64,000 nt of DNA. Origin: Mobula hypostoma (lineage: Eukaryota). Location of the stretch: assembly GCF_963921235.1 (NCBI RefSeq), contig NC_086097.1:169696001-169760000 (forward strand), written 5' to 3'. The notes under the pieces were generated by a model. That model saw nothing but the letters and a program-made list of their open reading frames with translations, was not told where the DNA came from and searched no databases. Position 1 is the first letter of the stretch; each line of letters begins with the position of its first letter. The position numbers were made by a program, and so were the translations under genes. This document shows positions 1 through 60,748 of this stretch, in pieces.

Positions 1-2369
1 TTGAAAATCCAAGTATACCACATCCACCAGTTCTCCCCTATCCACTCTACTAGTTACATCCTCAAAAAATTCTATGAGATTCGTCAGACATGATTTTCCT
101 TTCACAAATCCATGCTGACTTTGTCCGATCATTTCACTGCTTTCCAAATGTGCTGTTATCACATCCTTGATAACTGACTCCAGCAGTTTCCCCACCACCG
201 ACGTTAGGCTAACCGGTCTATAATTCCCCGGTTTCTCTCTCCCTCCTTTTTTAAAAAGTGGAGTTACATTAGCCACCCTCCAATCCTCAGGAACTAGTCC
301 AGAATCTAATGAGTTTTGAAAAATTATCACTAATGCATCCACTATTTCTTGGGCTACTTCCTTAAGCACTCTGGGATGCAGACCATCTGGCCCTGGGGAT
401 TTATCTGCCTTCAATCCCTTCAATTTACCTAACACCACTTCCCTACTAACATGTATTTCGCTCAGTTCCTCCATTTCACTGGACCCTCTGTCCCCCACTA
501 TTTCTGGAAGATTATTTATGTCCTCCTTAGTGAAGACAGAACCAAAGTAATTATTCAATTGGTCTGCCATGTCCTTGCTCCCCATAATCAATTCACCTGT
601 TTCTGTCTGCAGGGGACCTACATTTGTCTTTACCAGTCTTTTCCTTTTTACATATCTATAAAAGCTTTTACAGTCCGTTTTTATGTTCCCTGCCAGTTTT
701 CTCTCATAATCTTTTTTCCCCTTCCTAATTAAGCCCTTTGTCCTCCTCTGCTGAACTCTGAATTTCTCCCAGTCCTCAGTTGAGCCACTTTCTCTGGCTA
801 ATTTGTATGCTTCTTCTTTGGAATTGATACTATCCCTAATTTCTCTTGTCAGCCACGGGTGCACTACCTTCCTTGATTTATTCTTTTGCCAAACTGGGAT
901 GAACAATTGTTGTAGTTCATCCATGCAACCTTTAAATGCTTGCCATTGCATATCCACCGTCAATCCTTTAAGTGTCATTTGCCAGTCTATCTTAGCTAAT
1001 TCACGTCTCATACCTTCAAAGTTACCCCTCTTTAAGTTCAGAACCTTTGTTTCTGAATTAACTATGTCACTCTCCATCTTAATGAAGAATTCCACCATAT
1101 TATGGTCACTCTTACCCAAGGGGCCTCTCACGACAAGATCACTAATTAACCCTTCCTCATTGCTCAAAACCCAGTCCAGAATAGCCTGCTCTCTAGTTGG
1201 TTCCTCTACATGTTGGTTCAAAAAACTATCCCGCATACATTCCAAGAAATCCTCTTCCTCAGCACCTTTACCAATTTGGTTCACCCAATCTACATGTAGA
1301 TTGAAGTCACCCATTATAACTGCTGTTCCTTTATTGCACTCATTTCTAATTTCCTGTTTAATACCATCTCCGACTTCACTACTACTGTTAGGTGGCCTGT
1401 ACACAACTCCCACCAGCGTCTTCTGCCCCTTAGTGTTACGCAGCTCTACCCATATCGATTCCACATCTTCCCGGCTTATGTCCTTCCTTTCTATTGCGTT
1501 AATCTCTTCTTTAACCAGCAACGCCACCCCACCTCCCCTTCCTTCATGTCTATCCCTCCTGAATATTGAATATCCCTGAACGTTGAGCTCCCATCGCTGG
1601 TCACCCTGGAGCCATGTCTCTGTGATCCCAACTATATCATAATCATTAATAACAATCTGCACTTTCAATTCATCCACCTTATTACGAATGCTCCTTGCAT
1701 TGACACACAAAGCCTTCAGGCTTGCTTTTACAACTCTCTTAGCCCTTATACAATTATGTTGAAAAGTGGCCCTTTTTAATGCTTGCCCTGGATTTGTCGG
1801 CCTGCCACTTTTACTTTTCTCCTTTGTACTTTTTGCTTCTACCCTCACTTTACACCCCTCTGTCTCTCTGCACTGGTTCCCATCCCCCTGTTGTGAACTA
1901 ACCTCCTCACGCCTAGCCTCTTTAATTTGATTCCCACCCCCCAACCATTCTAGTTTAAAGTCACCTCAGTAGCCCCCACTAATCTCCCTGCCAGGATATT
2001 GGTCCCCCTAGGATTCAAGTGTAACCCGTCCTTTTTGTACAGGTCACGCCTGCGCCAAAAGAGGTCCCAATGATCCAAAAACTTGAATCCCTGCCCCCTG
2101 CTCCAATCCCTCAGCCACACATTTATCCTCCACCTCATCGCATTCCTCCTCTCACTGTCGCGTGGCACAGGCAGTAATCCCGAGATTACTACCTTTGCGG
2201 TCCTTTTTCTCAACTCCCTTACTAGCTCCCTATATTCTCCTTTCAGGACCTCATCCCTTTTCCTACCTATGTCATTGGTACCTATATGTACCACGACCTC
2301 TGGCTCCTCACCCTCCCACTTCAGGATATCTTGGACACGATCAGAAATATCCCGGACCCTGGCACCAGG
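1..2369 (-). mobile_element. CR1-clade LINE, 5'-truncated, young; ORF1 C-terminus (SGNH esterase-like) plus ORF2 (APE endonuclease to start of RT) running off the window edge
   Basis: ORF 1950-2372 has VVVHIGTNDIG and DGLHLN motifs of the CR1 ORF1 esterase domain. The minus strand near 1720 reads LKALCVNARSIRNKVDEL...VGITETWL (APE endonuclease) and positions 60-1 read DVTSRVDRGELVDVVYLDFQ (RT), both in the same frame. Confidence 0.93.
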
Positions 2370-2667
2370 CAAACTACAATCCGGTAGTTATTCAAGGCTG
2401 AGAGATGACAACAGCCTAATCTGACAGTTGACAGGAAGGGATGCCTTTCCCTTCCTCTGGATCCTCAGAAACATTAGTTCAAATCTAAAAACAATTTGAT
2501 GAGGTCACCCTTCCCCAATTGCCCCTCCTGCCCTCTTGCTCAGAAGTCTTAGATTTTTTAGGTGAAATTGCATTGGCTAGTAGCATTGAAAATTGCAAGG
2601 GAATATGACTGATGGGATTGCTCTGCTCGGAGTCAGCGTGGACCTATGGGCTGAGTGGCCTCATTCT

Positions 2668-9016: not shown

Positions 9017-11082
9017 AGGATCTTTTTCCCTACAAAAACAATTTGGCAACAAAAACAGACAACCTTATCAGCCAAATGACAATGTACTTTAATAAACAGA
9101 TTCATTACTGAGGAAGGTACCTGTACTTATAAATTCTAACCTCTGGAGAATTGGTTAGCTGTTGTGTGCACCCTGGGGCACTTTGGATTTAAACAGTATT
9201 TTAATGGGCCTATTGCACTATGGCAGACATGGGTCAATGAACAGATGTAGTAATGTCAACCTCAAGCTGGAAGTTGGTCTGTGATACACAAAAGAGTGGA
9301 AGGTTACAGGGAGAGGGGAATCACGGTTGGGAAAAGTGTAAGGCAACGGGGGGGGGGAGTGGGAAGCATTAGGGAGATACTCTGTAATGATCAATAAACC
9401 AATTGTTTGCAATCAAATGACCTTGCCTAGTGTCTCAGGGCTGGCTGGCATCCTCACCACGTCCACTCTGGCACTCCTTCTCTGCTACCTGTCCCACACT
9501 CCTCCCACAGCATTCCACTCTCACCATTCCCAATATCCCTTGCTCCCACTGGATATACAACTCACTTTCCACTCCACGTTGCCGAATACAGTACTGTGCA
9601 GAAGTCTTAGGCGCCCTAGCTCTATACATGTGCCGAAGACTTTTGCACCCCCTGTAGTTACATGGGCAAGAGAGATTTAGAGAGCTCTGGATCAAATGTA
9701 AGCAGATGGGACTAGACTGACGGACAACACATGGAAGAGTTGGACTGAAGAGCCTACTTCTATGTTGTATGACTCTGATTCTGGTCCCAGATTTATCACA
9801 ATCTGGTTGCCCTTCTCTGCACTGGATTTTGAAACTGAGAATCTCTGATACTCTTTGATGTTTTTGTTTCTTCATTTTTCTTCCACAATCTGATATTTTA
9901 CATTCAATACTCCCAAATACGATGTTATTTATCTCCTTGGTCACTTAAAAAACAAATTGTTGGTCCTTTCCAACAATACACCTGCTGCAATTATACAGGG
10001 TGCTGGTGAAACCACACCCATTTTTATCTCCTTAGTTAAGAGTACACTGTCCTGTAGGGAGTTCAGAACAGGTCCACCAAATTGGTTCCTGAATGGAAGG
10101 GCTTCTCTACGAGGAAAGATCCACCAGGCTAATCTCTACCCATCACAGTGACAGATAATGTAACTGAAACCAAATGAAATTCAGAGGGTTGATTCCCCTG
10201 GAGAGATTATATGGAATTAAAAAGGGAGTTTCATTCATTTAAAACAACGATGAGGAAGAATCTCATCTCAGAGGATCATGGATCTTTGACATTCTCTGCT
10301 GCAATGAACTGCCAGGAGAAGTGGTCAAGGCAGATAAAAGTAACGCTTAGAATACAGTTAGACAGGGACAGGGATAGGAAAGATTTAGAGGGATATGGGC
10401 CAAATACAGGCAAATGGGACTAGCTTAGGTGGATACCTTGATCAACATGGATGAGTTGGGCTGAGGGGCATATTTTCATGCAGCATTGCTGTAGGACTAA
10501 ATATATGTAAGGTTGATATTGACAGTTTGGTTCACAAGGGAGTCTTGGATTCTGAGGAACAAGCAAGAACTTGGGGCCAAGGTCCAGTTCAGATCAGCCA
10601 TAATTAACAGCAGAGCAGACATAAGAGATGATTTAGGTCTTCCTGCTTCTGCTTATGTTCTTGCACGAGATGTAACATCCCCAGAGAAGGCTGAACAAAT
10701 TAGGAATGGACTAATATCTCTTAATATGAAAGATTTGACAAAAAAAACTCTTTTTTGACAAGAATTTATGGCCACAGAAATTATATACATTAATAAATCC
10801 ATGCAAGAATTCAAAATAAATTTGCTTACCCTTGATATATACAAAGGAACTGAGGTGAATAACTTAGAGGCTTTTAGGAAATATCTGAACAAGACCAGGA
10901 GATTCAAACTCACAAAAACAATGGATCAATGGGAGCGACTGTTAACTTCCAATAGTCCCATGGTGAAGCTGGTACCTGTACCTGGTTACTTTGGGCTTGA
11001 CTCCTAATTAAAATCACATTATAACCAATTCAACCTGAATAACATAGATAGTGTATATCCTAACTCAATCACTTTATATTGA

Positions 11083-11221
11083 CGCAAACACAAGGACATC
11101 TGCAGATGCTGGAAATTAAAGCAACACACATCAAAGTTGCTGGTCGGCCCAAAATGTTGACTGTACCTCTTCCTAGAGATGCTGCCTGGCCTGCTGTGCT
11201 CACCAGCAACTTTGATGTGTG
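11083..11221. mobile_element. Fold-back Penelope-derived mini element with 14-bp TSD
   Basis: TSD tcactttatattga at 11069-11082 and 11222-11235. Internal inverted arms acacacatcaaagttgctggt / accagcaactttgatgtgtgt. Confidence 0.85.
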
Positions 11222-11306
11222 TCACTTTATATTGAATTTGTATTATAGTTTAGCAGAACCACCTGTATAATAATGGAAACACTGATCAAGGCAACACCTT
11301 ACTCAC

Positions 11307-11418
11307 CTTATACAATGCATAAGCAGTGAGTGCATTTCCACCTGTAGAATGGTTCAAAATTTGTATTATTCCTTTAGGTGCTCCTATATACTCAAGAAAT
11401 GGGACCACGTTAACACCT
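11307..11418 (-). CDS. FAM210A: FAM210A-like, middle coding exon (112 nt)
   Basis: Acceptor ttttactttcag|A, donor AAG|gtgagt. Reads (K)GVNVVPFLEYIGAPKGIIQILNHSTGGNALTAYALYK, and the phases fit both neighbouring exons. Not present in the ORF track. Confidence 0.95.
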
Positions 11419-13229
11419 CTGAAAGTAAAATGAAAATCAGCATTTAGTGTTTTATCAAAAGCTGTTTTACCAATGCTTTCACTAATTTGGATTGGAAGGT
11501 TCTGGATTTTACTTTTACTATAATTATGTATGAGTCAAAAAAAACTTAATTAAGGCAACTGCTTAAATTTTTAGTTTCTACAGCAATTTACAACTAAGAT
11601 ACTGATGCCAATAAATAACACCCATGCATTGCAAGTCTTGCACTGATGCCTCAGGTTGAACGTTACAGAAATTTAAGAGAAAATTTTGTCCTAGTTAGGA
11701 AACTGGCTGAGTCTATAAAAATGGATAATGGTAGGTTCTCAAACTGGCTTTTAATGGCTTCTCACAAAGATGTGTTTGAGGTCTTGTCTATTAACTGTAT
11801 TTATAAACAATTCACACATCGGGCTCAAAAGTCAGGGAACTGTTTTCTGATGACACAACAGGCGAATAGATGGAAGCACTAAATTACAAGGAGAGAGGAT
11901 CATATCAAGTGGACAGATGAAAATGTAGCAAATGCAATACATACAACCAAGGTTAACAAGACAACCATATTTTGCAAATGCTGAAAAACAAAGCAAATAA
12001 AGCTCTAAAAAAAACACAACTTGGGATTCCTTCATATGGATCATTAAACCTTCATGGACACAGAAATAATCTACAAATCTTATTAATCCTTTTTAATACA
12101 TCAAGCGAAGCAGGATATAATCAGAGTACAGGTTTGGCTACAGTAATAAAAGAATAAATTAGCCATATTGGGAACACACTTTAAGATACTGACCTTGAAA
12201 GGTATGCAGAAAAGATTGCCAATAAAGAGATTATGCAAAGAAAGGGTTGTATTCCCTGGAATTTAAGGAGTCATGGGGCGACGATTCAAGTTTACAGGAA
12301 CTGGACACAAAACTTCAACTATCCCTTTGCCTCCACAGGTGCTGCCATTCTTGCTGAGTTCCTCCAGCAACCTGGGTTTTTGCTCCAGATTCTAACATCT
12401 GCAGTCTCACGTCTAATGGTCCTTTAAACTGGTAAATCCTGAGAAATTGATCATCTGCACCTGAGATTTGTAAGAGATGGCTATAGAGATAGTGAACACT
12501 TTGGTTATCATCTTTCAGATTAGAGAGGGAGCAGATATAACTAAACCGTTTAAGAAAAGAACAGAGAAAAGATGGTATTACTCTGCTTGTTCTTATAATT
12601 GTTAGATGAGCAACTTTGGACTACATGAATGAAGGATATAACACGAAGACACTTTGAAAAGAAAATGATTGAGTAGAGTCAATCCAGATTTATAAAAGGG
12701 AAAATGCTAGTTGACTATTTGAAGACTGAGTCACGGAGGATGGAATCAGGCTCTTTGGTTCTATGTTAGGCCCATAGCCCTCTAAATCTCTCCTGTCTAG
12801 ATGGCTTTTAAATCAAAGTCAAAGAAAAATTTATCATCTCAAGTACACAATTACCATATACTACATTGAGATTCATTTTCTTGCAGGAATTTACAAGAAA
12901 ATAAATACAATAAAATTTATGAAAAACTCTACATAAACAAAGACTAAATCAACGTGCAAAAGATAACAAATTGTGCAAATAAACAAAAAGAACGTGAATT
13001 GTAAGAAGTCCTTGAAAGTGAGTCTGTAGGTTGTAAAATCAGTTCAGAATTGTGGTGACTGAAGTTAGTCATGTCGGTTCAATAGCCTGATAGTTGTAGG
13101 GTAATAACTGTTCCTCAAACTTGGGAGCTTTCCGGTGGTCCAATCGGATCGACAGAGGAGGCTCCACATAAGTAAGGCTGAACGATTTAAAAAGTATCAT
13201 TCACGGGCTTTTGGCTTTTTCTGGTGACC

Positions 13230-14720
13230 CAATCAAATCTAAAAATAAGGCAGCAACAAGCAGAGCGACTATTGTTGGAGGGGACCAGTGTTAAGAGTGG
13301 AGAGACTTTGACTCAACAAGGTTTGACAAGAACAGGGTTGGGCTAGGAAAATTTTTGGTAAGTTTCTTCTTCATTCTTCATCCGTTAGTGCTGTAAGATT
13401 GGTTCCAGGGGCTGTGTTGTGTTCTGTTGGTGGAGGAGGATTTACACTAATTTGGTAGAGCGGATGGGAACCAGAATGATAGGGGTGAGGATGGGGCAGT
13501 TGGTATACAAGCAGATGCAGTGTACAGTGAAACTGTCTGGAAGGACAGGCAGATGATAAGGCAAAATTGCAGTCAGTAGGATGAGTTGCAGTGTATCATG
13601 GGGACAAATTTGAAAAGGGTAAAGAATGCAGACCTGAAGGTCTTGTATTTGAATACACACAGTATATGGAATAAGGTAGATGATCTAGTAGTGCAGCTAG
13701 ATATTGGCAGGTATGACTTTGTGAGCATCATCGAGTCGAGGCTGAGAGAGATTATAGTTAGATACACATTGTATTAAAAGGACAGACAGGTAAGCAGAGG
13801 GGGTGGGATGGCTCTATTGGTAAAAAATGAAACAAATCCTTAGAAAGAGGTGACATAGGATTAGAAGTTATAGAAATTGCAAGGATAAAAAGACCCTGAT
13901 GGGAGGTATATACCAGCTCTTGATCAGTAGTCAGGACGTGGGCCACAAATTACAATGGGAGATAGAAACGCCATGTCAAGAGGGTAATGTTATGATAGTC
14001 ATGGGCGATTGCAGTATGCAGGCAGTCGATGCTGAATGCTGAATCCCAAGAGACAGAATTTGTCTAAGAGATGGCCTTTTAGAGCAGTTTGTGGTTGAGC
14101 CCACTCGGGGAAAGGCTATTCTGGATTGAGTTTTATGTAATGAAGCAGATTTGATTAGGGAGCTTAAGGTAGCAGTGATCATAACATAATTGAGTTACCC
14201 CCCAATTAGAGAGGAAGAAAATAAAGTCAATTGTATTAGTGTTACAGTGGAGTAATGGGAATTATAGAATGAAAGAGGAGCCAGCCAAAGTTGATTGGAA
14301 AGAGACACTAGCAGGGATGATGACATAGCAGTAACGGCTGGAGTTTCTGGAGCAATCGGAAGGCGCAAGATAGATATATCCTGAAGAAGTAGTAGTATTC
14401 TAAAGACAGGATGACGCAACCATGGCTGGCAAGGAAATTCAAAGACAACATAAAAGCAAGAGAGAGGGCATATAATAGAGCAAAAATTAGTGGGAGGTTA
14501 GAGATTGGGAAGCTTTTAAAAACCCACAGCAACAAGAGAAAATCTGCAGTTGCTGGAAATCCAAGCAACAGAAAATGCTGGAGGAACTCAGCAGGCCAGG
14601 CAGCATCTATGGAAAAGAGTACTGTCGACGTTTCAGGCAAAGACCCTTCAGTAGGACCAATAGAAGACAAGTAAAAAAGCCATAAGGAGGGAAAAGATGA
14701 AATATGAAGGCAGGAGGATA
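13230..14720 (+). mobile_element. Degenerate CR1 LINE (5' region, ORF1 end, endonuclease region), internally deleted
   Basis: LKVLYLNTHSIWNKVDDL endonuclease motif at about 13630-13690, plus PWLARKFKDNIKARERAYN. Many stops and frameshifts. Confidence 0.8.
14529..14657 (-). repeat. Penelope-derived hammerhead-type repeat inserted in CR1
   Basis: Reverse complement reads gtcctactgaagggtctttgcctgaaacgtcgac followed by the family body gatgctgcctggcctgctgagttcctccagca. Confidence 0.75.
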
Positions 14721-14734
14721 CCAAAGATTTTTCA

Positions 14735-14975
14735 TATACGAGTCACTCAGGTACCTGCCTTCTGCAACTTGGGTGTGACTACCTCCCCGTAATTCCTGCC
14801 TCACCTCATTCTCCTGTATGAGCCGAAGGTCATCGAGCTGTAGCTCCAGTTTCTTATAATGTTCTCTGAAGAGCTGCACCTCAGTGCACCTGGTGTAGAT
14901 GTGGTTATCCAGGAGGCTGGAGGTCTCTCAGAATTCCCACATCTCACAAACAGAACACAATTTGGCCCCGGAACC
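14735..14975 (-). mobile_element. CR1 ORF1 N-terminal fragment
   Basis: QLFREHYKKLELQLDDLRLIQENE preceded by a Cys-containing segment, as in chondrichthyan CR1 ORF1. Confidence 0.6.
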
Positions 14976-17120
14976 TATGGTGTATCAATTAAAATTGGTG
15001 AGGGTCAAAGGGGACATGCCAAATTTCTCTAGCCTCTGAAGTAGAGGCACCAGTAAGCTTTCCTGGTCATGGCATCAATGTGGTTGGCAGTATTCACTCC
15101 TCGGAACTTGAAACTCTGAACCGTTTTGACCGGAGCACCGTTGATGTAAACAGGACTGTGTGCACCACTTCTTTTCCTGAAGTCAATGACCAGCTTTTTT
15201 GTTTTGATGACACCTCAACCATTATTTCTGGCAGCTCATTCCAAATACGCACTATGCTTTGCATGAAGGGACTGCCTCTGATGTCTCTTGAATTTCTTGC
15301 CTCTGATCTTAACCTATGCCCCAATGAAAAGGCTATGTCCTTTCACCTCATGTCCCTCAAGATCTTATACAACTTTATTTATTTAGTAGATTAAATGAGG
15401 AAAAAGCAAGTGGATGTGTGCATTTTATTTTCAGAAGGCTTTTGAAAAGGTGCTGCACAGGAGAGTAGTGACCAAGGTTAGAGCACATGGAGTTATGGGT
15501 AATCTACTAACGTGCCTTGAAAATTGGTTAACATAGCATGTCACTACAGTAAAGTAGATTCTTCTCAAGTTGCCAGGCTGTTACCAATGTGCTCAGACCC
15601 AATTATATATTTTTTTTAAATCAATGATTTTTCCAAATTCCAAAATAAAAGAAAAATTGATCTCCTTACCAACATACTTGCTATAGAAGGAATACACTGA
15701 AGATTCATTTGACAGCTATTTGGAAAGGCCATTCTGTCATACAAGGAGAAATTAAATAGGCTGGGCCTCTTATCCTCTGGAATTTAAAATTAGAGATGAC
15801 CTCACTGAAAAATATAAGATTCAGAGAGGGCTTGACAGGGTGGATTTTCCCCGACTAATCTGAAGAATCTAAAACTAGATTAAAGTTGCTTCACCGAGAT
15901 TAATAAATATTTAGAATTCTTTGTCCTGGACCTCAATGAGGCCATCTCACTAACTACATTCAAAATTGAGATTAACAGTTTTCTGGACATCGAAACAATC
16001 AACAATTTGGGAATAGGGCATAATAATGGTACTTAATAGAGAAGACTGGTCATGAACTTTGAATGGTGAAGTAGACTTGGAAGAAGACAGGAAACCAGCC
16101 TATTCTAGTTTCCATTTTTTGTTCGTCCTGTCACGAATCAACAACCAGCGTAAAATCTTTGCTTTCCATTGAAAATACTGGGAAGCAAGGTTGCAGGTGT
16201 AGAAAGTAAACTACATGCAACTTAAACCTTTTTTGGTACCTGGGATGGCCTTTTATTCATAGGGATCAACATGGAGAGGTGGAACACTATTCAGAATGGC
16301 TTTGACAATCAGCAGGGCCCCATCTCTAGTTGTTGATGCTGCCAAGGTGACTATAGCTTGTGCATCTCTTCAGAATCAAAAACATTCTGAATTTAACAAA
16401 AGAACAATCTCACTGAAACACTATGCTGTGTATGTTAACAGTATTATGTTTCTTTGTAAAGTAATCTATCCCTATGATAAACTAAAATGCTGGAAGTATG
16501 ACATGCGACAGAAAATTCTGTATGTTTACATCAGGATCATTGTATTCCATTTTAAACTTTATAGCAAACTGAACATTTGCAGAATTAAAACAGCTCTGTA
16601 GCTAGTAGGATAAGCAGATTATGAATTTAATGCTCAACACCAATGAAACATCTTTTGCAAATATTCAGGGTTTGCTTGGCTTTCAATTGATTGCTGATTT
16701 AAAATAGCCCTTAAACCTGATAAGATGCTCAGTAGAAATTGCATCCTATTTGAATTTCAGAATAAATCAATTTTGAGTTTTCAGACTGTAGTACATGTTG
16801 CAGTCTAATAGCTCATCAAATTGTTATGCACTCATTCTATTTTTAGTTACATGGACTTTTAACTGATGATTGATTCAGGCCAGTCACAGTACAAATAATG
16901 AATGGGACCACTATAATGATACCAGGTAATATGTGGACAGATCAGTCAGCTTGGAAAGCTGTACCAGTCTACGTAACTCATTTGGATTCTATAAAGCTTT
17001 CACCAATACGGTTTAGGTGTTCATGTGGCCAGGACTTAACTCTAGGGGAGGTCTGCAATTCAAACTGATGAGGAACATCCCAGCTGCCTGTCCAGTGAGG
17101 TCTGAGGCAGATGATATATA

Positions 17121-18674
17121 CAGGTGTCCCCTGCTTTTCGAACGTTCGCCTTACGAAACCTCATGGTTACGAAAGTCCTACATTAGTACCCTATTTTCGC
17201 TTTCAGAAGGTGTTTTCACTGTTACAAAAAAATATTCAGCGCGCGATAAAAGGCAGCGCGCCCCGAGCAGCTGCTCTCCCCCGGATTCTCGCTGGCATTG
17301 CTTAAACACGAGCCTGTGAGCAGCCGTTTGCAAGATGAGGTATCGGAAAAGCCTGAAAGAGCTTGTAAGGGTGTTACACTTACGATAAAACTAGACATAA
17401 TTAAGCGTTTTGATCGTGGTGAACGAAGTAAGGACAACGTGAGTTTGGCTTGTAGAAGCTGATGAAGGTGATGTTGAAGAGGTTTTGGCATCCCATCACC
17501 AAGAACTGACAAGATGAAGAGCTGATGCAATTGGAAGAAAAAAGGATAACAATCGAAACCGAATGAGTCATGATAAAGTACGACTTTAATTTTGAAAGGG
17601 TACGTCGGTTTAGGGGATATTTGCAGGATGGTTTGAGTCCTCATTAAAGAACTGTGTGATAGAAAAATGCGTGAGGCTCAGCAGTCAAGCAAGCCTTCCA
17701 CATCAGCCACAGCAGACGACGAACCTCGACCTTCGACATCGAGGTGGGCAGTCATAGGAGAAGATGAGCTGCCTGCTCTAATGGAAACAGACGACGAGAT
17801 GACACCCCAGTGTCCCACCACCCCAACCCCCGGGCCACGGACAGATACCGATTCGCAGAGAATGCAAAGGTAGCCGGGAGGCACACAGCACATCTTTAAG
17901 AAAAAAGCCGAAATAAACATGCTAATTAATTGGGGGCCGCTGACACGTAATTGTCGGCCCAGATCAGAGACGACGCAATCGGAAATCGGCACTGATCTGG
18001 GCCGACAATTACGGGCAGCACCTAATTAATTAGCTTGTTTATTTCGGCTTTTTTCTTAAAGATGTGCTGTGTACCTCCTGGCTACTGCTGCACCCCTGCA
18101 TGCTTCGCAGCAATGTATCGCTCAGTGGCCTGGAGGGTGGGGGGCCACTGCACCACCCAAACTCCGACGACTCAGTCTAACACACCATCATCAGTGTGCT
18201 CGGCGCTGAACCAATTCCAGTAAGTGATACTACACTGTACATACATTATTTCTACTTTATATCGGCTGTGTATTTTTACGTGTTATTTGGTATGATTTGG
18301 CAGCTTCATAGCTTAAAGGTTACTGGAGAGCGCTTGTGCGTGTTTTTGCCAACAGGGCTTGCATGAAATTTTCTGCCGACGGCACTTGTGTGAGACTTTC
18401 GCTCTGGAGAACAGTTCAGTAATGATTATGGAAAAGTATTTTTACTTTATATAGGCTGTGTATTTATCATATCATTCCTGCTTTTACTATATGTTACTGT
18501 TATTTTAGATTTTATGTGTTATTTGGCATGATTTGGTAGGTTATTTTTGGGTCTGCGAACGCTCACAATATTTTCCCATATAAATAAATGGTAATTGCTT
18601 CTTCGCTTTAGGACATTTTGGCTTACGAACCGTTTCACAGGAATGCTCTACCTTCGGATGGCAGGGGAAACCTG
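17121..18674 (+). mobile_element. pogo/Tigger-type DNA transposon deletion derivative with TIRs and TA duplication
   Basis: TA|CAGGTGTCCCCTGC at 17121 and GCAGGGGAAACCTG|TA ending at 18674. Remnant N-terminal psq/CENP-B-like HTH (SEKPERACKGVTLTIKLDIIKRFDRGERSKD, about 17340-17436) is fused to acidic C-terminal remnants (EADEGDVEEVLASH, DEELMQLEEK). The DDE core is missing. Confidence 0.88.
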
Positions 18675-18817
18675 TATCATTAAAAAGAGCTACTGTTGCG
18701 GGATGATAAGACTAGAAAGAAGTGAGGTAGGCTTGAGTTTTGAAATGATGAAATGTTTCAGTAATAGTGTTAAGTGTTTGGAATTCTATTTCACAAACTA
18801 AAAAGGAACAGGTGGTC

Positions 18818-19165
18818 AAGAAACACACATAAAAGTTGCTGGTGAACGCAGCAGGCCAGGCAGCATCTCTAGGAAGAAGTGCAGTCGACGTTTCAGGCCG
18901 AGACACTTCGTCAGGACTAACTGAAGGAAGAGTGAGTAAGGGATTTGAAAGTTGGAGGGGGAGGGGGAGATCCAAAATGATAGGAGAAGACAGGAGGGGG
19001 AGGGATGGAGCCAAGAGCTGGACAGGTGATAGGCAAAAGGGATACGAGAGGATCATGGGACAGGAGGCCCGGGGAGAAAGACAAGGGGGGGGGAACCCAG
19101 AGGATGGGCAAGAGGTATATTCAGAGGGACAGAGGGAGAAAAAGGAGAGTGAGAGAAAGAATGTG
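18818..19165 (-). mobile_element. Penelope-like pLTR fragment containing a hammerhead motif
   Basis: A pyrimidine-rich tract (minus strand) is followed by ttcagttagtcctgacgaagtgtctcggcctgaaacgtcgactg and the family body. Same layout as the GIY-YIG-bearing copy at 53172-53676. Confidence 0.82.
18883..18918 (-). ncRNA. Minimal type I hammerhead ribozyme motif (putative)
   Basis: AGUC-CUGACGA-A-GUGUCUCGGCCU-GAAA-CGUC-GACU. Core intact, stem I AGUC/GACU, stem II imperfect. Confidence 0.6.
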
Positions 19166-20347
19166 TAATTTAGAATGTGTGGTCAAGATTTAGCTTTGAA
19201 TCTGAGGTGAGTAAGAATTTTTATTCTAAGACTGTAAAGGAAAGCAGGCCAAAAGTTGGTATTAGGAGTTACGTCACAGATCAGTTGTGATCTCACAAAG
19301 AGCTAAATAGTTTCATCCTCAATTCAGTGCCCCTTCATAGTAAATGCTAATTTGATTGCTGTCAGTTACATAGAAGAACATTCTGTGGGTCATATTACAA
19401 TTCTGTCCGATACAGTGGAAAGTTAAGGAAGAAGATTTCAAAATCAATTATAACTTGATTTGGTACTCTATATCTGTATTTCAATCATCTTCCGCATGGA
19501 ATAGGTATTCCTGTAACAAAACTAATTTATGGTCACATAAGCAAGTTTTCAAGGTATAATTACTGCTAATTTATTTTTAGTTGCCAATGTTCAAAGTCAC
19601 AATTGCTGGACTTGTCAAATTAATGAACTTTAAATAAAGTCAAAATAATTTAAATTTAATTTAAAGAAGCCAAAAGAGAGAATTAATAATTGGAATCTGA
19701 GTAACATTCTTCAGCTTCTTCAGTATTTACTCTTGGACTGCATCAGGTCTTAAAATCTGGACATGTTCTGAACATTTTGAATCCAATATTCCATTCAGCT
19801 AAAGCATACAGACTTGCCCAGCACATAACCTATGCATTAACACAAGCTAAAGCATAACAGACATGCATTACTTAAAATCCTCAGATGAAAAGCTTTGTTT
19901 TATTTACAAACAAAACCACAAATCTAAACTGGAGATCGAGTGTCATACATTACTTAGAATGACTCCTTGCTATAATTACCCTAGGTTGTGACAGAATATG
20001 ACAAATCGGAATAATTTGCTTTGACTTCGTAACTCAATAATTGTGGTATAAAAATGGGAAGCCCGTATAAATTTGAAGAAGGCAGATGATCCTGAACATT
20101 ATTAGAGGTGGAAAGTATAAGAGGTTGGAAAACTTGCTAAACCTTTAATAAAATATTAGTGAGACCTCAAGTGGAGTTTGGTAGCCAATTCTGGCCCCGT
20201 ATTTAGAAAAGGCTCAGATTTAGTCCACAAGACACAGGAGCAGAATTAGGCTGTTCAGCCCACCAAGCCTGTGCCATCATTTGATCATGGCTGATCCATT
20301 TCTCTCTCAATCCCATTCTCCTGCCTTCTCCTCACAATCTTCCATGC

Positions 20348-20785
20348 CCTGACATCCACCTGGTCTCAGAGGCATCAAAATATATCATCCTGCTAGAGCT
20401 GACGGTGCCTTTGGAGGAGCATATGGAAGAGGCCCGTGAGAGGAAGCTTGCCAGATACAGGAATTGGTCAGTGACAGTTGGAGCGGGGATGGAAGGAAGT
20501 GCATGCCTATTGAAGTGGGCTGCTTTGGCTTCGCTGGACAGTCACTTCACAGAGCCCTCAGCGCATTGGGCATTGCTAATTCAAGGAGGCAGAGCGCCAC
20601 TGGCAACAACACTGAGGCAGCAGAGAAAGCCTCAAGATGGCTCTGGATGAGGAGAGCAAGTCCATGGTGATCTGCAGCACATGCTATATGAATACAAGTC
20701 GCCTGGGTGAGGATGTCTGATGTTGAAAGACCTGAAACACCCAGTGACTACAAATTACATCACTGATGATGTGTTCAGAGCATAG
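20348..20785 (+). mobile_element. R2-superclade (HERO/NeSL-like) non-LTR retrotransposon 3' fragment with restriction-like endonuclease
   Basis: Reads PDIHLVSEASKYIILLELTVPLEEHMEEARERKLARY then, after a frameshift, CMPIEVGCFGFAGQSLHRAL. This is the PD-(D/E)xK RLE signature. Confidence 0.8.
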
Positions 20786-21206
20786 TGAAGTATATTCTTC
20801 AAAACAAGAATCTATCAATCTCTTCCTTAAATATACTCAATGACCTGGCCTCCACAGGTGCCTGTGGCAATGAATTCCACAGATTCACCACCCTCTGGCT
20901 AAAGAAATTCCTCATCTCTGTTCTAAATGGATGTCCCTCTATTATGAGGTTCTACACTCTGCTCCTAGACTCCCTCACTATTGGAAACATCCTCTCCACA
21001 TCCACTTTTTCTAAAAAAGTTCAAAGTTTCAAAAATACAAGATTAATTTATTATCAAAGTATACAACTCTGAAATTCTTCTTCTCCTAGAGCTTTCAACA
21101 CTTGATGGGTTTTGATGAGATCACCCCACTCATTCTTTTGAATTCCAGTGAGTACAGGCCCAGAGCCATCAAACACCCTTAACATGTAAGGCCTTTCAAT
21201 CCCAGA

Positions 21207-21580
21207 CACAAGGAAATCTGCAGATGCTGGAAATTCAAGCAACACACACAAAATGCTGGTGGAATGCAGCACAGTAGGAAGAGGTACAGTCGATGTTTTG
21301 GGCCGAGACCCTTCGTCAGGACTAACTGAAAGAAGAGATAGTAAGAGATTGGAAAGTGGGAGGGGGAGGGGGAGATTTGAAATGATAGAAGACAGGAGGG
21401 GAAGGGATGAAGCTAAGAGCTGGACAGTTGATTGTATTTCGATTCTCCCCCTCTCCCAATTTTTTACTATCTCTTCTTTCAGTTAGTCCTGACGAAGGGT
21501 CTCAGCCCGAAACGTCATCTGTGCTTCTTCCTATAGATGCTGCCTGGCCTGCTGCGTTCACCAGCATTTTGTGTGTGTTG
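21207..21580. mobile_element. Fold-back Penelope-derived element with two opposed hammerhead motifs and 14-bp TSD
   Basis: TSD ctttcaatcccaga at 21193-21206 and 21581-21594. Minus-strand arm motif at 21288-21323, plus-strand motif agtcctgacgaagggtctcagcccgaaacgtc at 21485-21516. Confidence 0.9.
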
Positions 21581-22723
21581 CTTTCAATCCCAGAATCATT
21601 TTCATGAACCTCCTTTGAACCTTCTCCAATGTCAGCACATCCTTTCTTAGATTAGGGGCCCAAAACTGCTCACAATACTCCAAGTGAGGCCTCACCAGTG
21701 CTTTATAAATTATCAGCATTACATCCTTGTTTTTATATTCTAGCTCTCTCGAAATGAATGCTAACATTGCATTTGCCTTCATGACCACCAACTCAGCCTG
21801 CGAGTTGACCTTTAGGGAATCCTGCACAAGGGCTCATAAGTCCTTTTGCACCTCGTATTTTGGAATTTTATCTCTGTTTAGAAAATACTCTATGCTTTTA
21901 TTCCTTCAGCCAAAGTGCATGACCATATACCTCCCTACACTGCATTTCATCTGCCACTTCTTTGCCCATTCTTGTAACCCAAGTCCTTCAGCAGCCTCCC
22001 TGCTTCCTTAACACTAGCTGCCCCTCAACCTATCTTCATTTTACATCAATGGTACCAGGGGTAAGTGGCTTCCACTGTGAAAGAGGGCATGTTTTCCTTT
22101 AAATTTGAAGGACATCTTTATTCTGATAAAGGCAGGTGAAGTTATTTCTAGCTGTTAAAAGTAGGTAACTACAAATCATGAAAAGCACAGAATAAACAAA
22201 ATGGAACAGGCAAAAATGTTTTCAGGACTGAACGGGAAGAGGAGTGGGATTAGAAAGCTAACTCTTTGTAAGAGTTTGCATGGGCATAATCAGACATGCA
22301 TCCTTGCTACATCATTCACTCTATGGCTAAAATCATTATCCTACGGTGCAGATATATGTATCATTATTAATGTGATCATTTTTCTCACTTCTATCTGGTC
22401 CTTAATCAAATTCTTTACCAGGCAGCTTGGCCAAGAAAACATGCAACCCAATATCTCTTTTCAGACATGCAGTCTTGTACAAACCTGGCTACTACACTGA
22501 AGCCAATTTTGGAACGATTCAGGCTTCACTGAACAGTGTTTACCATTGTGACTTTGGCAAAAGAAAATGTAAGTTTTTAAACAGCTTTAAAAAAAAATAA
22601 GAAAAAATTCAGGAATGATGCAAAATTCTAAACTTAGATTTGGTAGTAATGTTCGACAAATGAGGATTCAACTTAAGTTTTGTTATCTAAAGACATGTTA
22701 TTGTAAGCACGTGACATACTTAC

Positions 22724-23214
22724 TTTAACGCTGCATAATAAAATGTACCAAACCATATGCTTGATGTCAACAAATGCACTGGGATCATGACCTTCCCATA
22801 TTGCTTGAATGTCTTTTTGAATCGCTGATATAGACCAATTGAGTGGTCGTGGAGAGGATCCTTTTCCACATCTGCTACTTCTTGTTTTGGGGTTGTCTCA
22901 GAAAAGTATGTTTCTTGAACTGAGTCTGATAAAGTGTCTTGATCAGGATCACTCCTTGGTATAGACTTAGGGTCATCTGACTTGGCTTTCTCAGTGTCCA
23001 CGTGCTTTGCGGATGATGGTTCTGCTTGGAAATTCGGCTTTCGCTGTTCCAAGGCAACAACTGGGCGAGACATGTGCAGGAGCTGTCCCTGATGAGGGAT
23101 AAGAAAAGGCATCTTCCCACATGTAGCTGGAAGTATGCGAGAGACACACTGTCGGACATTACAAGCTTGCTTTGAGTGCAGTTTGAGGACAGTTTGAAGG
23201 AAGTAACTCTGCAT
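22724..23214 (-). CDS. FAM210A: FAM210A-like, first coding exon (mitochondrial presequence-like N-terminus, start of DUF1279)
   Basis: ATG at 23214. DPLHDHSIGLYQRFKKTFKQYGKVMIPVHLLTSSIWFGTFYYAAL matches FAM210A. Donor TTAAA|gtaagt at 22724/22723 (phase 2). Spliced CDS is 491+112+234=837 nt, 278 aa. Confidence 0.95.
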
Positions 23215-23869
23215 GTTTAAGTTTCCAGTTTGATGATTTCTAGTCTAATGACAGAAGAACTGGAAGGAAAACAAAGTGTTACAAATGCAGTTTCCAATCA
23301 GTTTAATCATTGCACATTATAGACTCACCTTGCACTTAAAATGCCAAACAATTTTACAATTGCTTTCTCTTCAATGTAAGCTTTAACCTTGAATTTACTG
23401 CCAATGGTCTATTCTGAAATGGAATCATTGTTTCATGGTTATATGTGGCAGCCAACTTGTGCTGCTATTTTTGTGAGACGAAGCTAAGCAATCAGCCCAT
23501 CCACTGTGTTGTTTTTCCAAAGGTGAATTAGGGGAGGGGGCATTCCCAAAAAGGGGCATTTTAAATTAGGTCATCATAACTCCTGCTTGCACCTTATAAT
23601 AGTTTAATATTTTGCCAGCAAGATGAAATCTGTGCGAATATCTTCTTAAGACTTAAATCACTTATACAAATTGAACCAGTGGCACTGATCAGAATGCAAG
23701 ATTTTACTTTGGAAAGCTGGTACTTTTATCTAAGTTGCTATTAATTTTTCACTTCCTTCTCTCCCTACACTTTTTTTTTAATCCATTTCTCAATTTACAG
23801 TGTTCTCAGTATTTTCAGGTTCTCCTCTCCAGTCTTGCTATCTACCTGGCTTCCTCACCATTTTATAAA

Positions 23870-24061
23870 CAAGAAAAAAATTTGCAGATGCTGGAAATCA
23901 AAGGAAAACACACAAAATGCTGGAGGAACTCAGCAGGTCATACAGCATTTACAGAAAAGAGTACACAGTTGATGCTTCGGGCTGAAACCTGAAACGTCGA
24001 CTGTACTCTTCTCCATAGATACTGCCTGGACTGCTGAGTTCCTCCAGCATTTTGTGTGTGG
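23870..24061. mobile_element. Fold-back Penelope-derived mini element, 7-bp TSD
   Basis: Inverted arms cacacaaaatgctggaggaactcagcag / ctgctgagttcctccagcattttgtgtg. ttataaa at 23863-23869 and 24062-24068. Confidence 0.8.
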
Positions 24062-37719: not shown

Positions 37720-37936
37720 TAGCACATCAGGCAGCATCTATCGAGGGAAAATAAGCAGTTGCTATTTCATGCCAGGCCCTTCATAGCCCCAATCAGTCCT
37801 GATGAAGGGTCTCAGCTCCAAATGTTGACTATTTATTCCTCTCTGACCCTGCCTGAAATGCGGAGTTCCTCCAGCATTTTGTGTGTGTGTTGCTCAAGAT
37901 TTCTAACATCTACAGAATCTCTTGTGTTTACATAAG
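37720..37936. mobile_element. Older fold-back Penelope-derived element, 10-bp TSD
   Basis: gcattttaca at 37710-37719 and 37937-37946. Motif agtcctgatgaagggtctcagctccaaatgttgact has GAAA decayed. Confidence 0.7.
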
Positions 37937-45620: not shown

Positions 45621-45766
45621 CAATACACAGAAAATGCTAGAAGAACTCAGCAGGCCAGGCAGCATTTACAGAAAAGAGTGCAGTTGACATTTCGGGTCGA
45701 GACCCTTCAGCAGGACCAGACCAGACTGGATTTTCAGCATCTGCAGATTTTCTCTTGTTTATGCTC
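45621..45766. mobile_element. Penelope-derived mini element (CTGCTGA variant, short inverted tail) with 13-bp TSD
   Basis: aggtaggaagagg at 45608-45620 and 45767-45779. Minus strand reads gtcctgctgaagggtctcgacccgaaatgtc. Confidence 0.85.
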
Positions 45767-48700: not shown

Positions 48701-48920
48701 TCAGAGGGTGGTGAGAGTGTAGAATGAGTTGCCAGCACAAGTGGTGAATGCAATTTCTATTCAACATTTAAGAGAAGTTTGGTTAGGTACATGGAGGGAA
48801 GTGTTTGGAGGGGTATGATCTGGGTGATGGTCAATGAGACTAGGCAGTTTAAATGGTTCGAGACAGACCAGATGGGCCAAGGGGACTGCTTCTGTGCTTC
48901 AGTTTTCTCTGACTATAACC
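45767..48920 (+). mobile_element. Degenerate CR1 LINE (ORF1 end, ORF2, 3' UTR) in LGI intron 4
   Basis: GRKRDKILQSEFRELG (ORF1), CVYFNERSIIGKADEL, IVGDFNFPHIDW, KSPEPDKVFP, SQHGFVCVKSCLTN and MQMEFNAVKCEVLHFG. Multiple frameshifts. Confidence 0.92.
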
Positions 48921-52094: not shown

Positions 52095-52945
52095 CAAAAA
52101 GTTCTATTTTAACTTCATCAGTCCACAGGACTTTTTTCCGAAATGCAACAGGCTTGTTTAGATGTTTCTTTGCAAACTTCTGACGCTGAAATTTGGCCGC
52201 AATGAGCAAAGGTATGTTGGAGAAAAAAGGATGAAGAAAAAGAACCCCTCTCCAACTGTTAAGCACAGGGGTGGATCGATCATGCTTTGGGCTTGTGTTG
52301 CAGCCAGTGGCACGGGGAACATTTCACTGGTAGAGGGAAGAATGAATTCAATTAAATACCGGCAAATTCTGGAAGCAAGCATCACACCGTCTGTAAAAAA
52401 GCTGAAGATAAAAAGAGGACGGCTTCTACAACAGGATAATGATCCTAAACAGACCTCAAAATCCACAATGGACTACCTCAAGAGGCGCAAGCTGAAGGTT
52501 TTGCCATGGCCCTCACAGTCCCCCGACCTAAACATCATCGAAAATCTGCGGATAAACCTCAAAAGAGCAGTGCATGCAAGACGGCCCAAGAATCTCACAG
52601 AACTAGAAGCCTTTTGCAAGGAAGAATGGGTGAAAATCCCCCAAATAAGAGTTGAAAGACTCTTAGCTGGCTACGGAAAGCGTTTACAAGCTGTGATACT
52701 TGCCAAAGGGGGTGTTACTAAGTACTGCCATGCAGGGTGCCCAAACTTTTGCTTTGGGCCCTTTTCCTTTTTTGTTATTTTGAAACTGTAAAGGATGGAA
52801 ATTAAAAAATAATCTTGCTTAAAACATTAAAGAAATTTGTCATCTTTAACTTTATGCCTTTTGGAAATCAGGCCATCTTTTACTCGCTTAGCTATTCACA
52901 GTAACAGAAATTTTGACCAGGTGCCCAAACTTTTGCATGCCACTG
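52095..52945 (+). mobile_element. Tc1-family (DD34E) transposon remnant with right IR/DR terminal repeat; 5' part inverted and truncated
   Basis: PTVKHRGGSIMLWAC, QDNDPK and WPSQSPDLNIIE, with 34 residues between D and E. Repeat ggtgcccaaacttttgc at about 52736 and 52920. End CACTG|TA at 52945. The WTDE motif lies on the minus strand at 52095-52190. Confidence 0.92.
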
Positions 52946-53171: not shown

Positions 53172-53676
53172 CCACTCCGTCCGCCACAACAGACAGGATC
53201 TCCCGGTAGCCACCCACTTCAACTCTACTTCCCATTCCCATTCAGATATGTCCACACATGGCCTCCTCTACTGCCATGATGAGGCTAAACTCAGGTTGGA
53301 GGAGCAACACCTCATATATCGTCTAGGTAGTCTCCAACCCCTTGGTATGAACATAGAATTCTCCAACTTCTGGTAATTCCCTCCCCCTCCCTTCCTCTAA
53401 CCCTATTTCACTCTACCCCCTCCCCCAGCTCCCTCATGGTTCCACCTCCTTCTACTACCCATTCTTTTCAGGGCTATGATGTCAATGCTTCCCCTCCCCA
53501 TCCCTTTGTCTTTCAAATTACTGGTCTTTCAACTGAAGCTACAAGCATTTTTCAAATCTTTCCCCATCTTTCATTCTTCAGTCCTGACGAAGGGTTCCGG
53601 CCTGAAATGTCGACTCATCGTTTCTAACTGATGCTGCCCGACCTGCTGAGTTCATCCAGTGTACTGAAAGTGTTGC
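53172..53676 (+). mobile_element. Penelope-like element 3' end (GIY-YIG endonuclease C-terminus plus pLTR with hammerhead), 12-bp TSD, inserted in a CR1 3' UTR
   Basis: HSVRHNRQDLPVATHFNSTSHSHSDM...RLEEQHLIYRLGSLQPLGMNIEF. TSD tccaatcaacct at 53160-53171 and 53677-53688. The host CR1 tail (minus strand) spans about 53090-53880. Confidence 0.9.
53580..53615 (+). ncRNA. Minimal type I hammerhead ribozyme motif (putative)
   Basis: AGUC-CUGACGA-A-GGGUUCCGGCCU-GAAA-UGUC-GACU. Confidence 0.6.
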
Positions 53677-54234: not shown

Positions 54235-54545
54235 AACGCAAACATGAGGAAATCTGCAGATGCTGGAAATGTAAGCAACACACACAAAATGCTGGTGAAT
54301 GCAGCAGGCCAGGCAGCATCTCTAGGAAGAGGTACAGTCAACGTTTCGGGCCAAGACCCTTCGTCAGGACTAACTGAAAGAAGAGAGTGAAGATGAAGGT
54401 AGAAGGTGGTGAGGGTGTCGAATGAGCTGCCAGCACAAGTAGTTCTTTCAGTTAGTCCTGACGAAGGGTCTTGGCCTGAACCGTCGATTGTACCTCTTCC
54501 AATAGATGCTGCCAGGTCTGCTGTGTTCACCAGCATTTTGTGTGA
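54235..54545. mobile_element. Fold-back Penelope-derived element with two opposed hammerhead motifs, CR1 filler and 15-bp TSD
   Basis: gaggctgggattaaa at 54220-54234 and 54546-54560. About 100-bp inverted arms. Confidence 0.9.
54336..54371 (-). ncRNA. Minimal type I hammerhead ribozyme motif (best-preserved copy)
   Basis: AGUC-CUGACGA-A-GGGU-CUUG-GCCC-GAAA-CGUU-GACU. Stems I and II are fully paired, stem III is the palindrome ACGU, and the cleavage triplet is GUU. Confidence 0.68.
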
Positions 54546-60660: not shown

Positions 60661-60748
60661 CTTTAAGACTTAACAGCTTAAGGTATGACAGTGGTGTTAG
60701 ATTACGCCTTTTCTTGATTGATGACTAACATTCCTTTTCTTGGCGCAG

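What the first reader, a model, noticed from the sequence alone, without database searches (positions are those of the whole stretch)
21193..21594. Fold-back, TSD-flanked, non-coding Penelope derivative presenting a hammerhead on each strand
Seen: a 374-bp insert made of two opposed copies of the same pLTR-like unit, bounded by a perfect 14-bp duplication (ctttcaatcccaga) inside a CR1. The same architecture with different TSDs appears at 11083, 23870, 37720, 45621 and 54235. The inversion point differs in each copy, so the fold-back seems to be made at each insertion rather than copied from one master. Inference: a non-autonomous, retrozyme/SINE-like system mobilised by Penelope RT/GIY-YIG, in which both target ends are primed on the same short RNA. 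Inverted pLTRs are known for Penelope, but this miniature, high-copy form may be undescribed in this lineage.
Basis: partly seen in the sequence, partly recalled or inferred. Interest (0 to 1): 0.72.

Follow-up and report, generated by a model that had tools for sequence, protein, structure and literature searches.

The report
Two-armed truncated Penelope retroelement insertion
This hairpin-shaped insert is a dead, severely shortened copy of a Penelope-like jumping gene in a ray-like fish, a known insertion pattern, although its ends hint that both sides of the cut DNA started copying on the same RNA.

Summary
In detail: a 374-bp insert (21207-21580) with a perfect 14-bp target duplication, two head-to-head arms and an RT-bearing LINE as host. 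It is not a separate SINE or retrozyme. The arms are 3' ends of 5'-truncated copies of an autonomous Neptune-type Penelope-like element. The same sequence runs into RT plus GIY-YIG coding sequence in this window and in ray proteins. Both hammerheads are damaged. Inverted copies with a one-sided tail, and opposite-strand hammerhead pairs, are in print, and this scan noted the form before elsewhere in this genome.

What may be new is mechanistic. 8 of 8 two-armed loci have exactly one tailed end. In 4 of 8 the tail-less arm is not nested in the tailed arm. At 7 tail-less ends the duplicated target matches the element's own tail in register (39 of 85 letters, null 22 +/- 4). This favours twin priming at two sites of one RNA over cDNA fold-back. 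The sample is small and the test was post hoc.

The parts
21193..21206 (+). left copy of the 14-bp target-site duplication (host LINE sequence)
   Evidence: present once in the uninterrupted paralog at 55508-55495
21207..21432 (-). left arm: 3' end of the Penelope-like element with tail, about 226 nt, 13-nt internal deletion near 21272
   Evidence: 81% over 216 columns to the single copy at 18816-19030
21207..21239 (-). 33-nt 'tail', present on this arm only
   Evidence: compare the 30-40-bp one-sided tail in PMC8557442
21287..21324 (-). minimal type I hammerhead motif, degraded: GAAA read as AAAA (21299) and helix III palindrome changed (21294), both CpG-type changes
21381..21432 (-). upstream 3'-UTR sequence found only in the left arm; loop of the hairpin
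21433..21436 (.). inversion junction, 0-4 letters of filler or microhomology
   Evidence: read by eye
21437..21580 (+). right arm: 3' end of the same element without tail, 144 nt
21484..21521 (+). minimal type I hammerhead motif: core boxes intact (CTGACGA at 21489, GAAA at 21509, GTC ending 21516), 3' strand of helix I mismatched at 21517-21518
21581..21594 (+). right copy of the duplication; matches the first 14 letters of the tail at 9 of 14 positions, in register with the arm
20800..22000 (-). host LINE fragment, interrupted by the insert
   Evidence: paralog contiguous with an RVT_1 frame
11083..11221 (.). two-armed copy, TSD 14 bp (11069, 11222); tailed arm left; tail-less arm reaches 59 positions further upstream
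   Evidence: indirect signs of an empty site in runs X11, X14, X19
23870..24061 (.). two-armed copy of a second subfamily, 7-bp duplication, junction in hammerhead helix II
37720..37936 (.). old two-armed copy, TSD 10 bp; tailed arm right, left arm eroded
45621..45766 (.). two-armed copy, TSD 13 bp; arms tile the RNA without overlap (profile positions 117 to 17 inverted, then 116 to 151)
54235..54545 (.). two-armed copy, TSD 15 bp, with a 43-nt filler from another repeat between the arms
18822..19178 (-). single tail-less arm, TSD 10 bp; its 5' part matches the sequence just downstream of the endonuclease gene in P0006
   Evidence: site bridged without it in runs X14 and X19
53172..53676 (+). 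single tail-less arm, TSD 12 bp, holding the last 67 codons of the GIY-YIG endonuclease, the 3' UTR and the hammerhead

Best explanation
The insert is one insertion of an autonomous Neptune-type Penelope-like retroelement (PLE) in which both ends were cut short, leaving only two 3' ends (about 90% sure). It is now dead and decaying. Likely mechanism (about 60%): the element's RT-endonuclease, probably as a dimer, cuts both target strands about 14 bp apart, leaving two 3' overhangs. One overhang primes reverse transcription at the outer start site, which copies the tail. The other primes at the inner start site about 35 nt upstream, at a point partly chosen by loose pairing of the overhang with the start of the tail. 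Both cDNAs stop early at variable places and are joined head to head through a few shared or filler letters, and gap filling makes the duplication. SHOWN here: anatomy, TSD, variable junctions, one-tail rule, non-nested arms, link to coding sequence, target-tail similarity. SHOWN elsewhere, in vitro, for a Poseidon element: cutting and extension of both strands, two start sites bounding the tail, no need for hammerhead cleavage; the dimer was predicted only. INFERRED: one RNA for both arms, strand displacement where arms overlap, pairing as the cause of the similarity, and the joining step.
For: Coding link: 53173-53373 matches 12 ray proteins, best E 5.9e-31. P0001, P0004, P0006 and P0007 have a weak GIY-YIG hit (4 of 5 scanned), and P0006 has the CX4CxxC linker and CCHH pattern that PMC8557442 gives for Neptune/Nematis. 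P0006 continues into the 5' part of the 18822 copy (34 of 37 residues). One event: the two arms share the subfamily variant in 5 of 5 loci where both cover it; the 11083 site looks wholly empty in run X19 (indirect). Two primers: 8 of 8 two-armed loci are head to head with one tailed arm, chance 0.001-0.004 (0.006-0.016 on the 6 with uneroded ends). In 4 of 8 the tail-less arm reaches 40-99 positions further upstream than the tailed arm, so it cannot be a copy of it. At 45621 the arms abut. Target-tail match: 39 of 85 against 22 +/- 4 (2 of 20000 random draws), 18-25 when slid by 1-3 letters; 30 of 71 without the focal copy (61 of 20000); best of 21 registers in 4 of 7 ends, one with a tie. 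In vitro precedent: PMC11167929.
Against: The focal copy alone cannot decide: its tail-less arm is nested in the tailed arm, as in 3 other loci. The target-tail test was prompted by the focal copy, rests on 7 ends, and 3 of 7 ends show nothing (2 of 7, 5 of 13, 3 of 12). [quoted passage not shown] Later deletions could have shortened tailed arms. Two tail-less ends (6080, 37720) are eroded. Three of 8 loci lack a convincing TSD. The orthologous state of the focal site is unresolved. The two arms of a locus are mostly not each other's best match.
Confidence: 0.7

Rival explanations
1. Same element, but one primer only: the first cDNA folds back on a short palindrome and copies itself, and the endonuclease trims the tail from the second end when it resolves the intermediate.
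For: Self-priming is proposed from junction palindromes in PMC3846280, there on an antisense template; the tail is ascribed to EN-mediated resolution in PMC8557442. 4 of 8 loci, the focal one included, have nested arms, and the 23870 junction lies in the helix II stem. An endonuclease that prefers tail-like DNA (D. virilis result as summarised in PMC11167929) could also give target-tail similarity.
Against: 4 of 8 loci are not nested and 45621 has no overlap. The tail-less ends vary over about 8 positions and the similarity follows each copy's own register. Most junctions show only 0-4 shared or filler letters, and one has a 43-nt foreign filler.
Confidence: 0.2
2. Both ends are primed, but on two separate RNA molecules, or on two pLTR copies of a tandem transcript, with an asymmetric dimer using a different start site at each end.
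For: Explains overlapping arms without strand displacement; PLE transcripts are tandem (PMC11167929). The arms of a locus are not closer to each other than to other arms of the subfamily.
Against: Does not by itself give 8 of 8 mixed pairs or the abutting arms of 45621.
Confidence: 0.2
3. A separate non-autonomous retrozyme- or SINE-like short RNA, released by hammerhead cleavage and mobilised in trans.
For: Most copies are under 250 nt and end near the hammerhead. Retrozymes derive from pLTRs and occur in the one chondrichthyan sampled in the 2026 preprint. Short transcripts of truncated copies could be remobilised.
Against: No fixed 5' end; most arms cross the predicted cleavage site; continuity with coding sequence; no head-to-tail array of the unit.
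Confidence: 0.08
4. A MITE or other DNA transposon, or two arms that arrived independently.
For: Hairpin shape, small size, very high abundance.
Against: TSDs of 7-15 bp, unequal termini, a different junction in every copy, single arms with their own TSDs, same subfamily on both arms in 5 of 5.
Confidence: 0.02

Closest known systems
Complex tandem/inverted insertions of endonuclease-bearing PLEs with a one-sided 30-40-bp tail (Arkhipova et al. 2013, PMC3846280: passages and Discussion read; Craig et al. 2021, PMC8557442: passages read)
   Same: Head-to-head inverted 5'-truncated copy, one TSD around the whole insert, tail at one end only.
   Different: Both arms here are so short that no ORF remains and the whole insert is a hairpin; eight such loci in 64 kb.
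Minimal hammerheads of metazoan PLEs (Cervera and De la Pena 2014, PMC4209133: parts 1-2 of 4 read)
   Same: CUGANGA, extra nucleotide after A9, short helix I, palindromic minimal helix III; that paper reports pairs 100-700 bp apart on opposite strands, probably truncated PLEs.
   Different: Both motifs in this copy are damaged; a ray lineage is not named in the parts read.
Poseidon element of Anolis in vitro (Frangieh et al. 2024, PMC11167929: parts 1-2 of 4 read)
   Same: Two internal start sites bounding the tail; both target strands cut and extended; uncleaved RNA is the template.
   Different: Different clade. That work found no homology between start site and target and no strand difference in start site; here the inner end shows partial in-register similarity and the two ends of an insert always differ.
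Twin priming of mammalian L1
   Same: Both target 3' ends prime on one RNA, giving an inverted arm inside one TSD; 45621 has the non-overlapping layout.
   Different: The inner priming site is nearly fixed, and the arms usually overlap.
Non-LTR retrozymes (Cervera and De la Pena 2020, PMC7229834: passages read; Li, Clavereau and Pollet 2026, 10.64898/2026.07.22.740005: parts 1-2 of 5 read)
   Same: Non-coding, type I hammerhead, related to pLTRs.
   Different: Retrozymes are head-to-tail repeats with a hammerhead in each unit; this is head to head, with variable lengths and minimal motifs.

Membership tests
Endonuclease-bearing PLE | PLE-type RT followed by a C-terminal GIY-YIG endonuclease with CCHH motif, linked to this terminal sequence | tested here: met
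   Not in the focal insert itself. Endonuclease C-terminus joined to the hammerhead unit at 53172-53676. P0006 holds RT-like motifs (read by eye), a weak GIY-YIG hit and CCHH, and continues into the focal subfamily's upstream sequence.
Endonuclease-bearing PLE | 5' truncation, inverted truncated copy, variable-length TSD | tested here: met
Endonuclease-bearing PLE | optional 30-40-bp tail at one end | tested here: met
   33-nt tail on the left arm only; 8 of 8 two-armed loci
Endonuclease-bearing PLE | tandem or partial-tandem full-length copy forming a pLTR | not testable with these tools
Neptune clade | CX2-5CxxC linker between RT and endonuclease (shared with Nematis) | tested here: met
   CX4CxxC in P0004, P0006, P0007 and P0009, read by eye; definition
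Neptune clade | placement in an RT phylogeny | not tested
   no tree was built; Neptune rather than Nematis rests on recall of host range
Minimal type I hammerhead | core boxes, extra nucleotide 9b, helix II, palindromic 15.2-16.2, helix I | tested here: inconclusive
   complete across the family (18821 copy: core and helix I intact); focal minus arm lacks G12, focal plus arm has two helix I mismatches
Minimal type I hammerhead | self-cleavage, as a dimer or with protein help | not testable with these tools
   needs an assay; on either strand only one sense motif exists and it is predicted inside the long hairpin
Non-LTR retrozyme | head-to-tail tandem units each with a hammerhead | tested here: not met
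   0 of 6 tandem-repeat rows involve the unit; all 8 two-armed loci are head to head
Non-LTR retrozyme | unit-length linear or circular RNA | not testable with these tools
   only contigs were available
SINE-like non-autonomous family | fixed 5' boundary of a short master unit | tested here: not met
   5' ends scatter from within the tail to inside the endonuclease gene; 94 records continue upstream of 19166 in run X5
MITE | matching terminal inverted repeats, fixed TSD length, fixed interior | tested here: not met
   unequal termini, TSD 7-15 bp, junction differs in each copy

The most novel reading that the evidence does not exclude
Twin priming is built into PLE integration. The two 3' overhangs of a staggered cut engage two start sites on one RNA, and the long-unexplained tail is the pad to which the second overhang anneals. 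That would explain in one stroke the inverted pLTR, the one-sided tail and part of target choice. Ray genomes, with very many miniature copies, would let this be tested by counting alone. I did not find this stated in four searches; most subscription journals are not covered.
Probability: 0.35. Interest if true: 0.62.

Novelty: new member of a known kind. Interest (0 to 1): 0.32.

Why it matters
As an object it is ordinary: a dead truncated PLE insertion. Its value is as a record of mechanism. How PLEs form inverted repeats and the one-sided tail is named as an open question in PMC8557442 and PMC11167929. Miniature copies keep both ends, the junction and the TSD within 100-400 bp, so thousands can be scored. 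If the one-tail rule, non-nested arms and target-tail pairing hold genome-wide, they give the in vivo second-end step that the in vitro system left open. Such inserts also place long hairpins in introns (here FAM210A) and can be misfiled as MITEs.

Tried and rejected
No whole genome was held, so no genome-wide count. Rfam: nothing at gathering score in the window; 19 weak matches at the insert, all far below gathering score, mostly hairpin miRNA models, none a hammerhead. Pattern scans of viral and metagenome contigs: 0 matches each; genome contigs was not scanned. Pfam found no PLE domain: six frames of 10001-22002, and 161 frame references, 159 of them among the 166 stop-to-stop frames of 75 aa or more; the endonuclease end was found by a motif scan instead and has no Pfam hit itself. 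No RNA holder listed. Orthologous state of the focal site: the joints skipping 21173/21174/21176 to 21581 come from 10-21 contigs per run and are taken as paralogous LINE copies, so they were not counted. For 23870 one contig of X14 joins the right arm to its flank but reaches only 23 letters past the arm junction, under the tool's 31-letter rule. Local templating of the 54235 filler from 53774-53816 was rejected as unproven: a second paralog at 48703-48745 matches nearly as well (91% and 88%). Hammerhead cleavage as the turning point: most arms cross the predicted site. Target similarity at tailed ends could not be scored because the sequence beyond the tail is not in the window. A search of earlier findings by sequence gave three unrelated notes. 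Dfam and Repbase could not be queried. No supplements were read; Fig. S1B and S2 of PMC11167929 may bear on target-template similarity.

Full report
Setting. The window is vertebrate DNA. It has FAM210A-like exons on the minus strand at 22723-23244 and about 11298-11423, an EPTP-repeat exon at 60718-61566, and several LINE fragments. All 12 homologs of a retroelement peptide from the window are from stingrays and devil rays, so the host is inferred to be a ray. The insert lies between the two FAM210A exons, hence in an intron transcribed from the minus strand (inference).

Observation. The 14-bp duplication is exact at 21193 and 21581 and encloses 374 bp. Random placements gave no boundary repeat of 13 letters or more in 3000 trials. 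With the insert removed, the flanks align across the site with three paralogous repeats at 77-83%. One of them carries the same 14 letters once, so the duplication is host sequence. The host repeat adjoins an RT frame. The arms lie head to head. The left arm (21207-21432, minus strand) has a 33-nt tail and extra upstream sequence; the right arm (21437-21580) lacks both. The insert folds at -223.7 kcal/mol on the plus strand (z -21) and -188.9 on the minus strand. Each arm carries a minimal type I hammerhead motif, but the minus-strand one has lost G12 and the plus-strand one has two helix I mismatches. The arms differ from the subfamily majority at 5 of 96 and 6 of 108 columns, 5 of these 11 changes being CpG-type, which fits neutral decay.

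Census. A profile built from 19 arms gave 28 hits in the window and 0 in a reversed control; 19 match by construction and 9 are new. Sixteen hits form eight two-armed loci, all head to head: 6020, 11083, 21207, 23870, 37720, 45621, 54235 and 63293. Twelve are single arms, one of them weak (E 0.018) and abutting 63293 tail to tail. Five two-armed loci have perfect TSDs of 10-15 bp; 23870 has 7 bp; 6020 and 63293 have none that convinces. Three single arms have their own TSDs of 10-12 bp. Junctions differ in every copy. In four related runs the summed depth over the focal bin is 0.6-1.1 million against 6-30 in unique bins. The tool warns that this is no copy number, and the bin includes LINE sequence; it shows only that the family is very abundant.

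What the unit is. The single copy at 53172-53676 starts inside a reading frame whose 67 residues match ray proteins at up to E 5.9e-31, then runs through a pyrimidine-rich UTR and the hammerhead. Four of five of these proteins that were scanned have a weak GIY-YIG hit. They show RT-like motifs and a CX4CxxC linker by eye, the linker being a Neptune/Nematis mark (PMC8557442). For the focal subfamily, protein P0006 reads past the usual end of the endonuclease into sequence that matches the 5' part of the 18822 copy at 34 of 37 residues. That copy matches the focal left arm at 81% over 216 columns. In run X5, 94 records continue upstream of 19166 with a shared sequence that by eye matches the preceding residues of P0006 at 4 of 6. 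The arms are therefore 3' ends of truncated copies of a coding element, not a unit with its own 5' boundary. A minority non-autonomous subfamily elsewhere in the genome cannot be excluded from one window.

One event. Both arms share the subfamily variant in 5 of 5 loci where both cover it. Mean identity within loci (0.82, 5 pairs) is little above that between loci (0.76, 74 pairs), and partners are mostly not best matches. In one search the 18822 copy is absent in X14 and X19: one contig bridges the region, and in X14 the piece starts at the TSD with 147 letters between where about 138 are expected if this copy and a neighbouring DNA transposon are both missing. For 11083 a contig of X19 stops aligning exactly at the right TSD, and the same depth value appears on both sides in X11, X14 and X19 but not in X5. 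That points to a wholly empty site, but the left pieces were not printed, so it is indirect. No half-filled site was seen among the pieces shown. The focal site could not be resolved because paralogous LINE copies swamp it.

Mechanism. Three regularities bear on it. First, 8 of 8 two-armed loci have exactly one tailed arm, whereas single arms are 7 tailed, 3 tail-less and 2 unclear. Chance is 0.001-0.004, or 0.006-0.016 on the six loci with uneroded ends (four tail-less ends were clipped by hand from the profile hit to the arm boundary). Second, in 4 of 8 loci the tail-less arm reaches 40-99 positions further upstream than the tailed arm, so it cannot have been copied from the tailed cDNA; at 45621 the arms abut with no overlap. 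The other four, the focal copy included, are nested and also fit self-priming. Third, at all 7 tail-less ends with an identified TSD and an uneroded end, I compared the duplicated target with the element's own continuation, with the register fixed from the arm alone: 39 of 85 letters match against 22 +/- 4 for random words and 23 +/- 4 for shuffled TSDs; slid registers give 18-25 and reverse-complemented TSDs 24. The excess survives leaving out the focal copy (30 of 71; 61 of 20000 draws) and dropping the initial matching run (31 of 70; 12 of 20000; both together 25 of 60, 143 of 20000). The observed register ranks first of 21 in 4 of 7 ends, one with a tie, and three ends show nothing. The test was post hoc. 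The simplest reading is that both 3' overhangs of a staggered cut prime reverse transcription, one at the outer and one at the inner start site, the second helped by loose pairing with the tail. For the Anolis element both strands are cut and extended, two start sites bound the tail, a dimer is predicted, and hammerhead cleavage is dispensable (PMC11167929). Against my reading, that paper found initiation at a site not homologous to the target and no strand difference in start site. Rivals are cDNA self-priming with endonuclease trimming, two templates, and endonuclease preference for tail-like DNA.

Comparison with print. An inverted 5'-truncated copy, one TSD and a tail often at one end only are standard for PLEs (PMC3846280; PMC8557442; PMC8969392, passages). 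Pairs of minimal hammerheads 100-700 bp apart on opposite strands were reported in Schistosoma and ascribed to truncated PLEs (PMC4209133). Retrozymes are defined by head-to-tail repeats, which this is not. Searches for Penelope in stingrays or cartilaginous fish gave 0 and 1 listings (the one was seen as a listing only). Searches on twin priming, inverted pLTR mechanism, structure and microhomology listed nothing that states the model above (listings only, apart from the papers named). L1 twin priming is recalled, not read. This scan already noted the same miniature form in this genome and another; those notes agree with my reading, which was recorded before I saw them, and they are not independent support.

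Verdict. Real, correctly described in outline, and a member of a known kind. The retrozyme/SINE reading is not supported. The one-tail rule, non-nested arms and target-tail similarity are a modest but testable lead on how PLEs finish integration. Interest 0.32.

Noticed in passing
window 17118-18677: 1.56-kb element with 28-nt terminal inverted repeats and TA on both sides, with an internal 230-nt hairpin (17863-18092); resembles a non-autonomous Tc1/pogo-type DNA transposon (label recalled). Contigs of runs X14 and X19 bridge the region without it.
   Followed up: partly
window 54401-54443: 43-nt filler between the arms of the 54235 copy matches another repeat at 53774-53816 (91%) and 48703-48745 (88%): a template switch or repair insert at the inversion junction.
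   Followed up: partly
window 63247-63456: A weak third sense piece (63256-63296) abuts the two-armed copy; a 6-bp word at 63247 and 63451 could enclose all three, but it occurs 78 times in the window.
   Followed up: partly
window 11083-11221 and 18822-19178: Bins holding these two copies lose depth steeply from run X5 to X19 (403,000 to 17,000; 1.1 million to 26,000), while the bins at 14432 and 23512 change little, suggesting a younger subfamily burst (depth is no copy number and bins hold other repeats).
   Followed up: no
proteins P0001, P0002, P0005, P0008, P0010-P0012: Ray gene models named as isoforms of host genes (DIPK1C, ATP synthase C3-like, mucin-2, VKORC1L1, ABHD14A, LAMP3, ULK1) contain this PLE endonuclease end: annotation artefacts or exonised copies.
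   Followed up: no
window 1-2387 (minus strand): Long LINE frame with AP endonuclease and RT hits (655 aa open), preceded by an overlapping frame with an SGNH/GDSL esterase hit.
   Followed up: no
window 11298-23244 (minus strand): The FAM210A-like intron holds the focal hairpin and two single arms; the pre-mRNA could form a duplex of about 140 bp, a possible editing substrate (inference).
   Followed up: no
window 52162-52788 and 60718-61566: DDE_3 transposase fragment, and an EPTP-repeat (LGI-like) exon.
   Followed up: no
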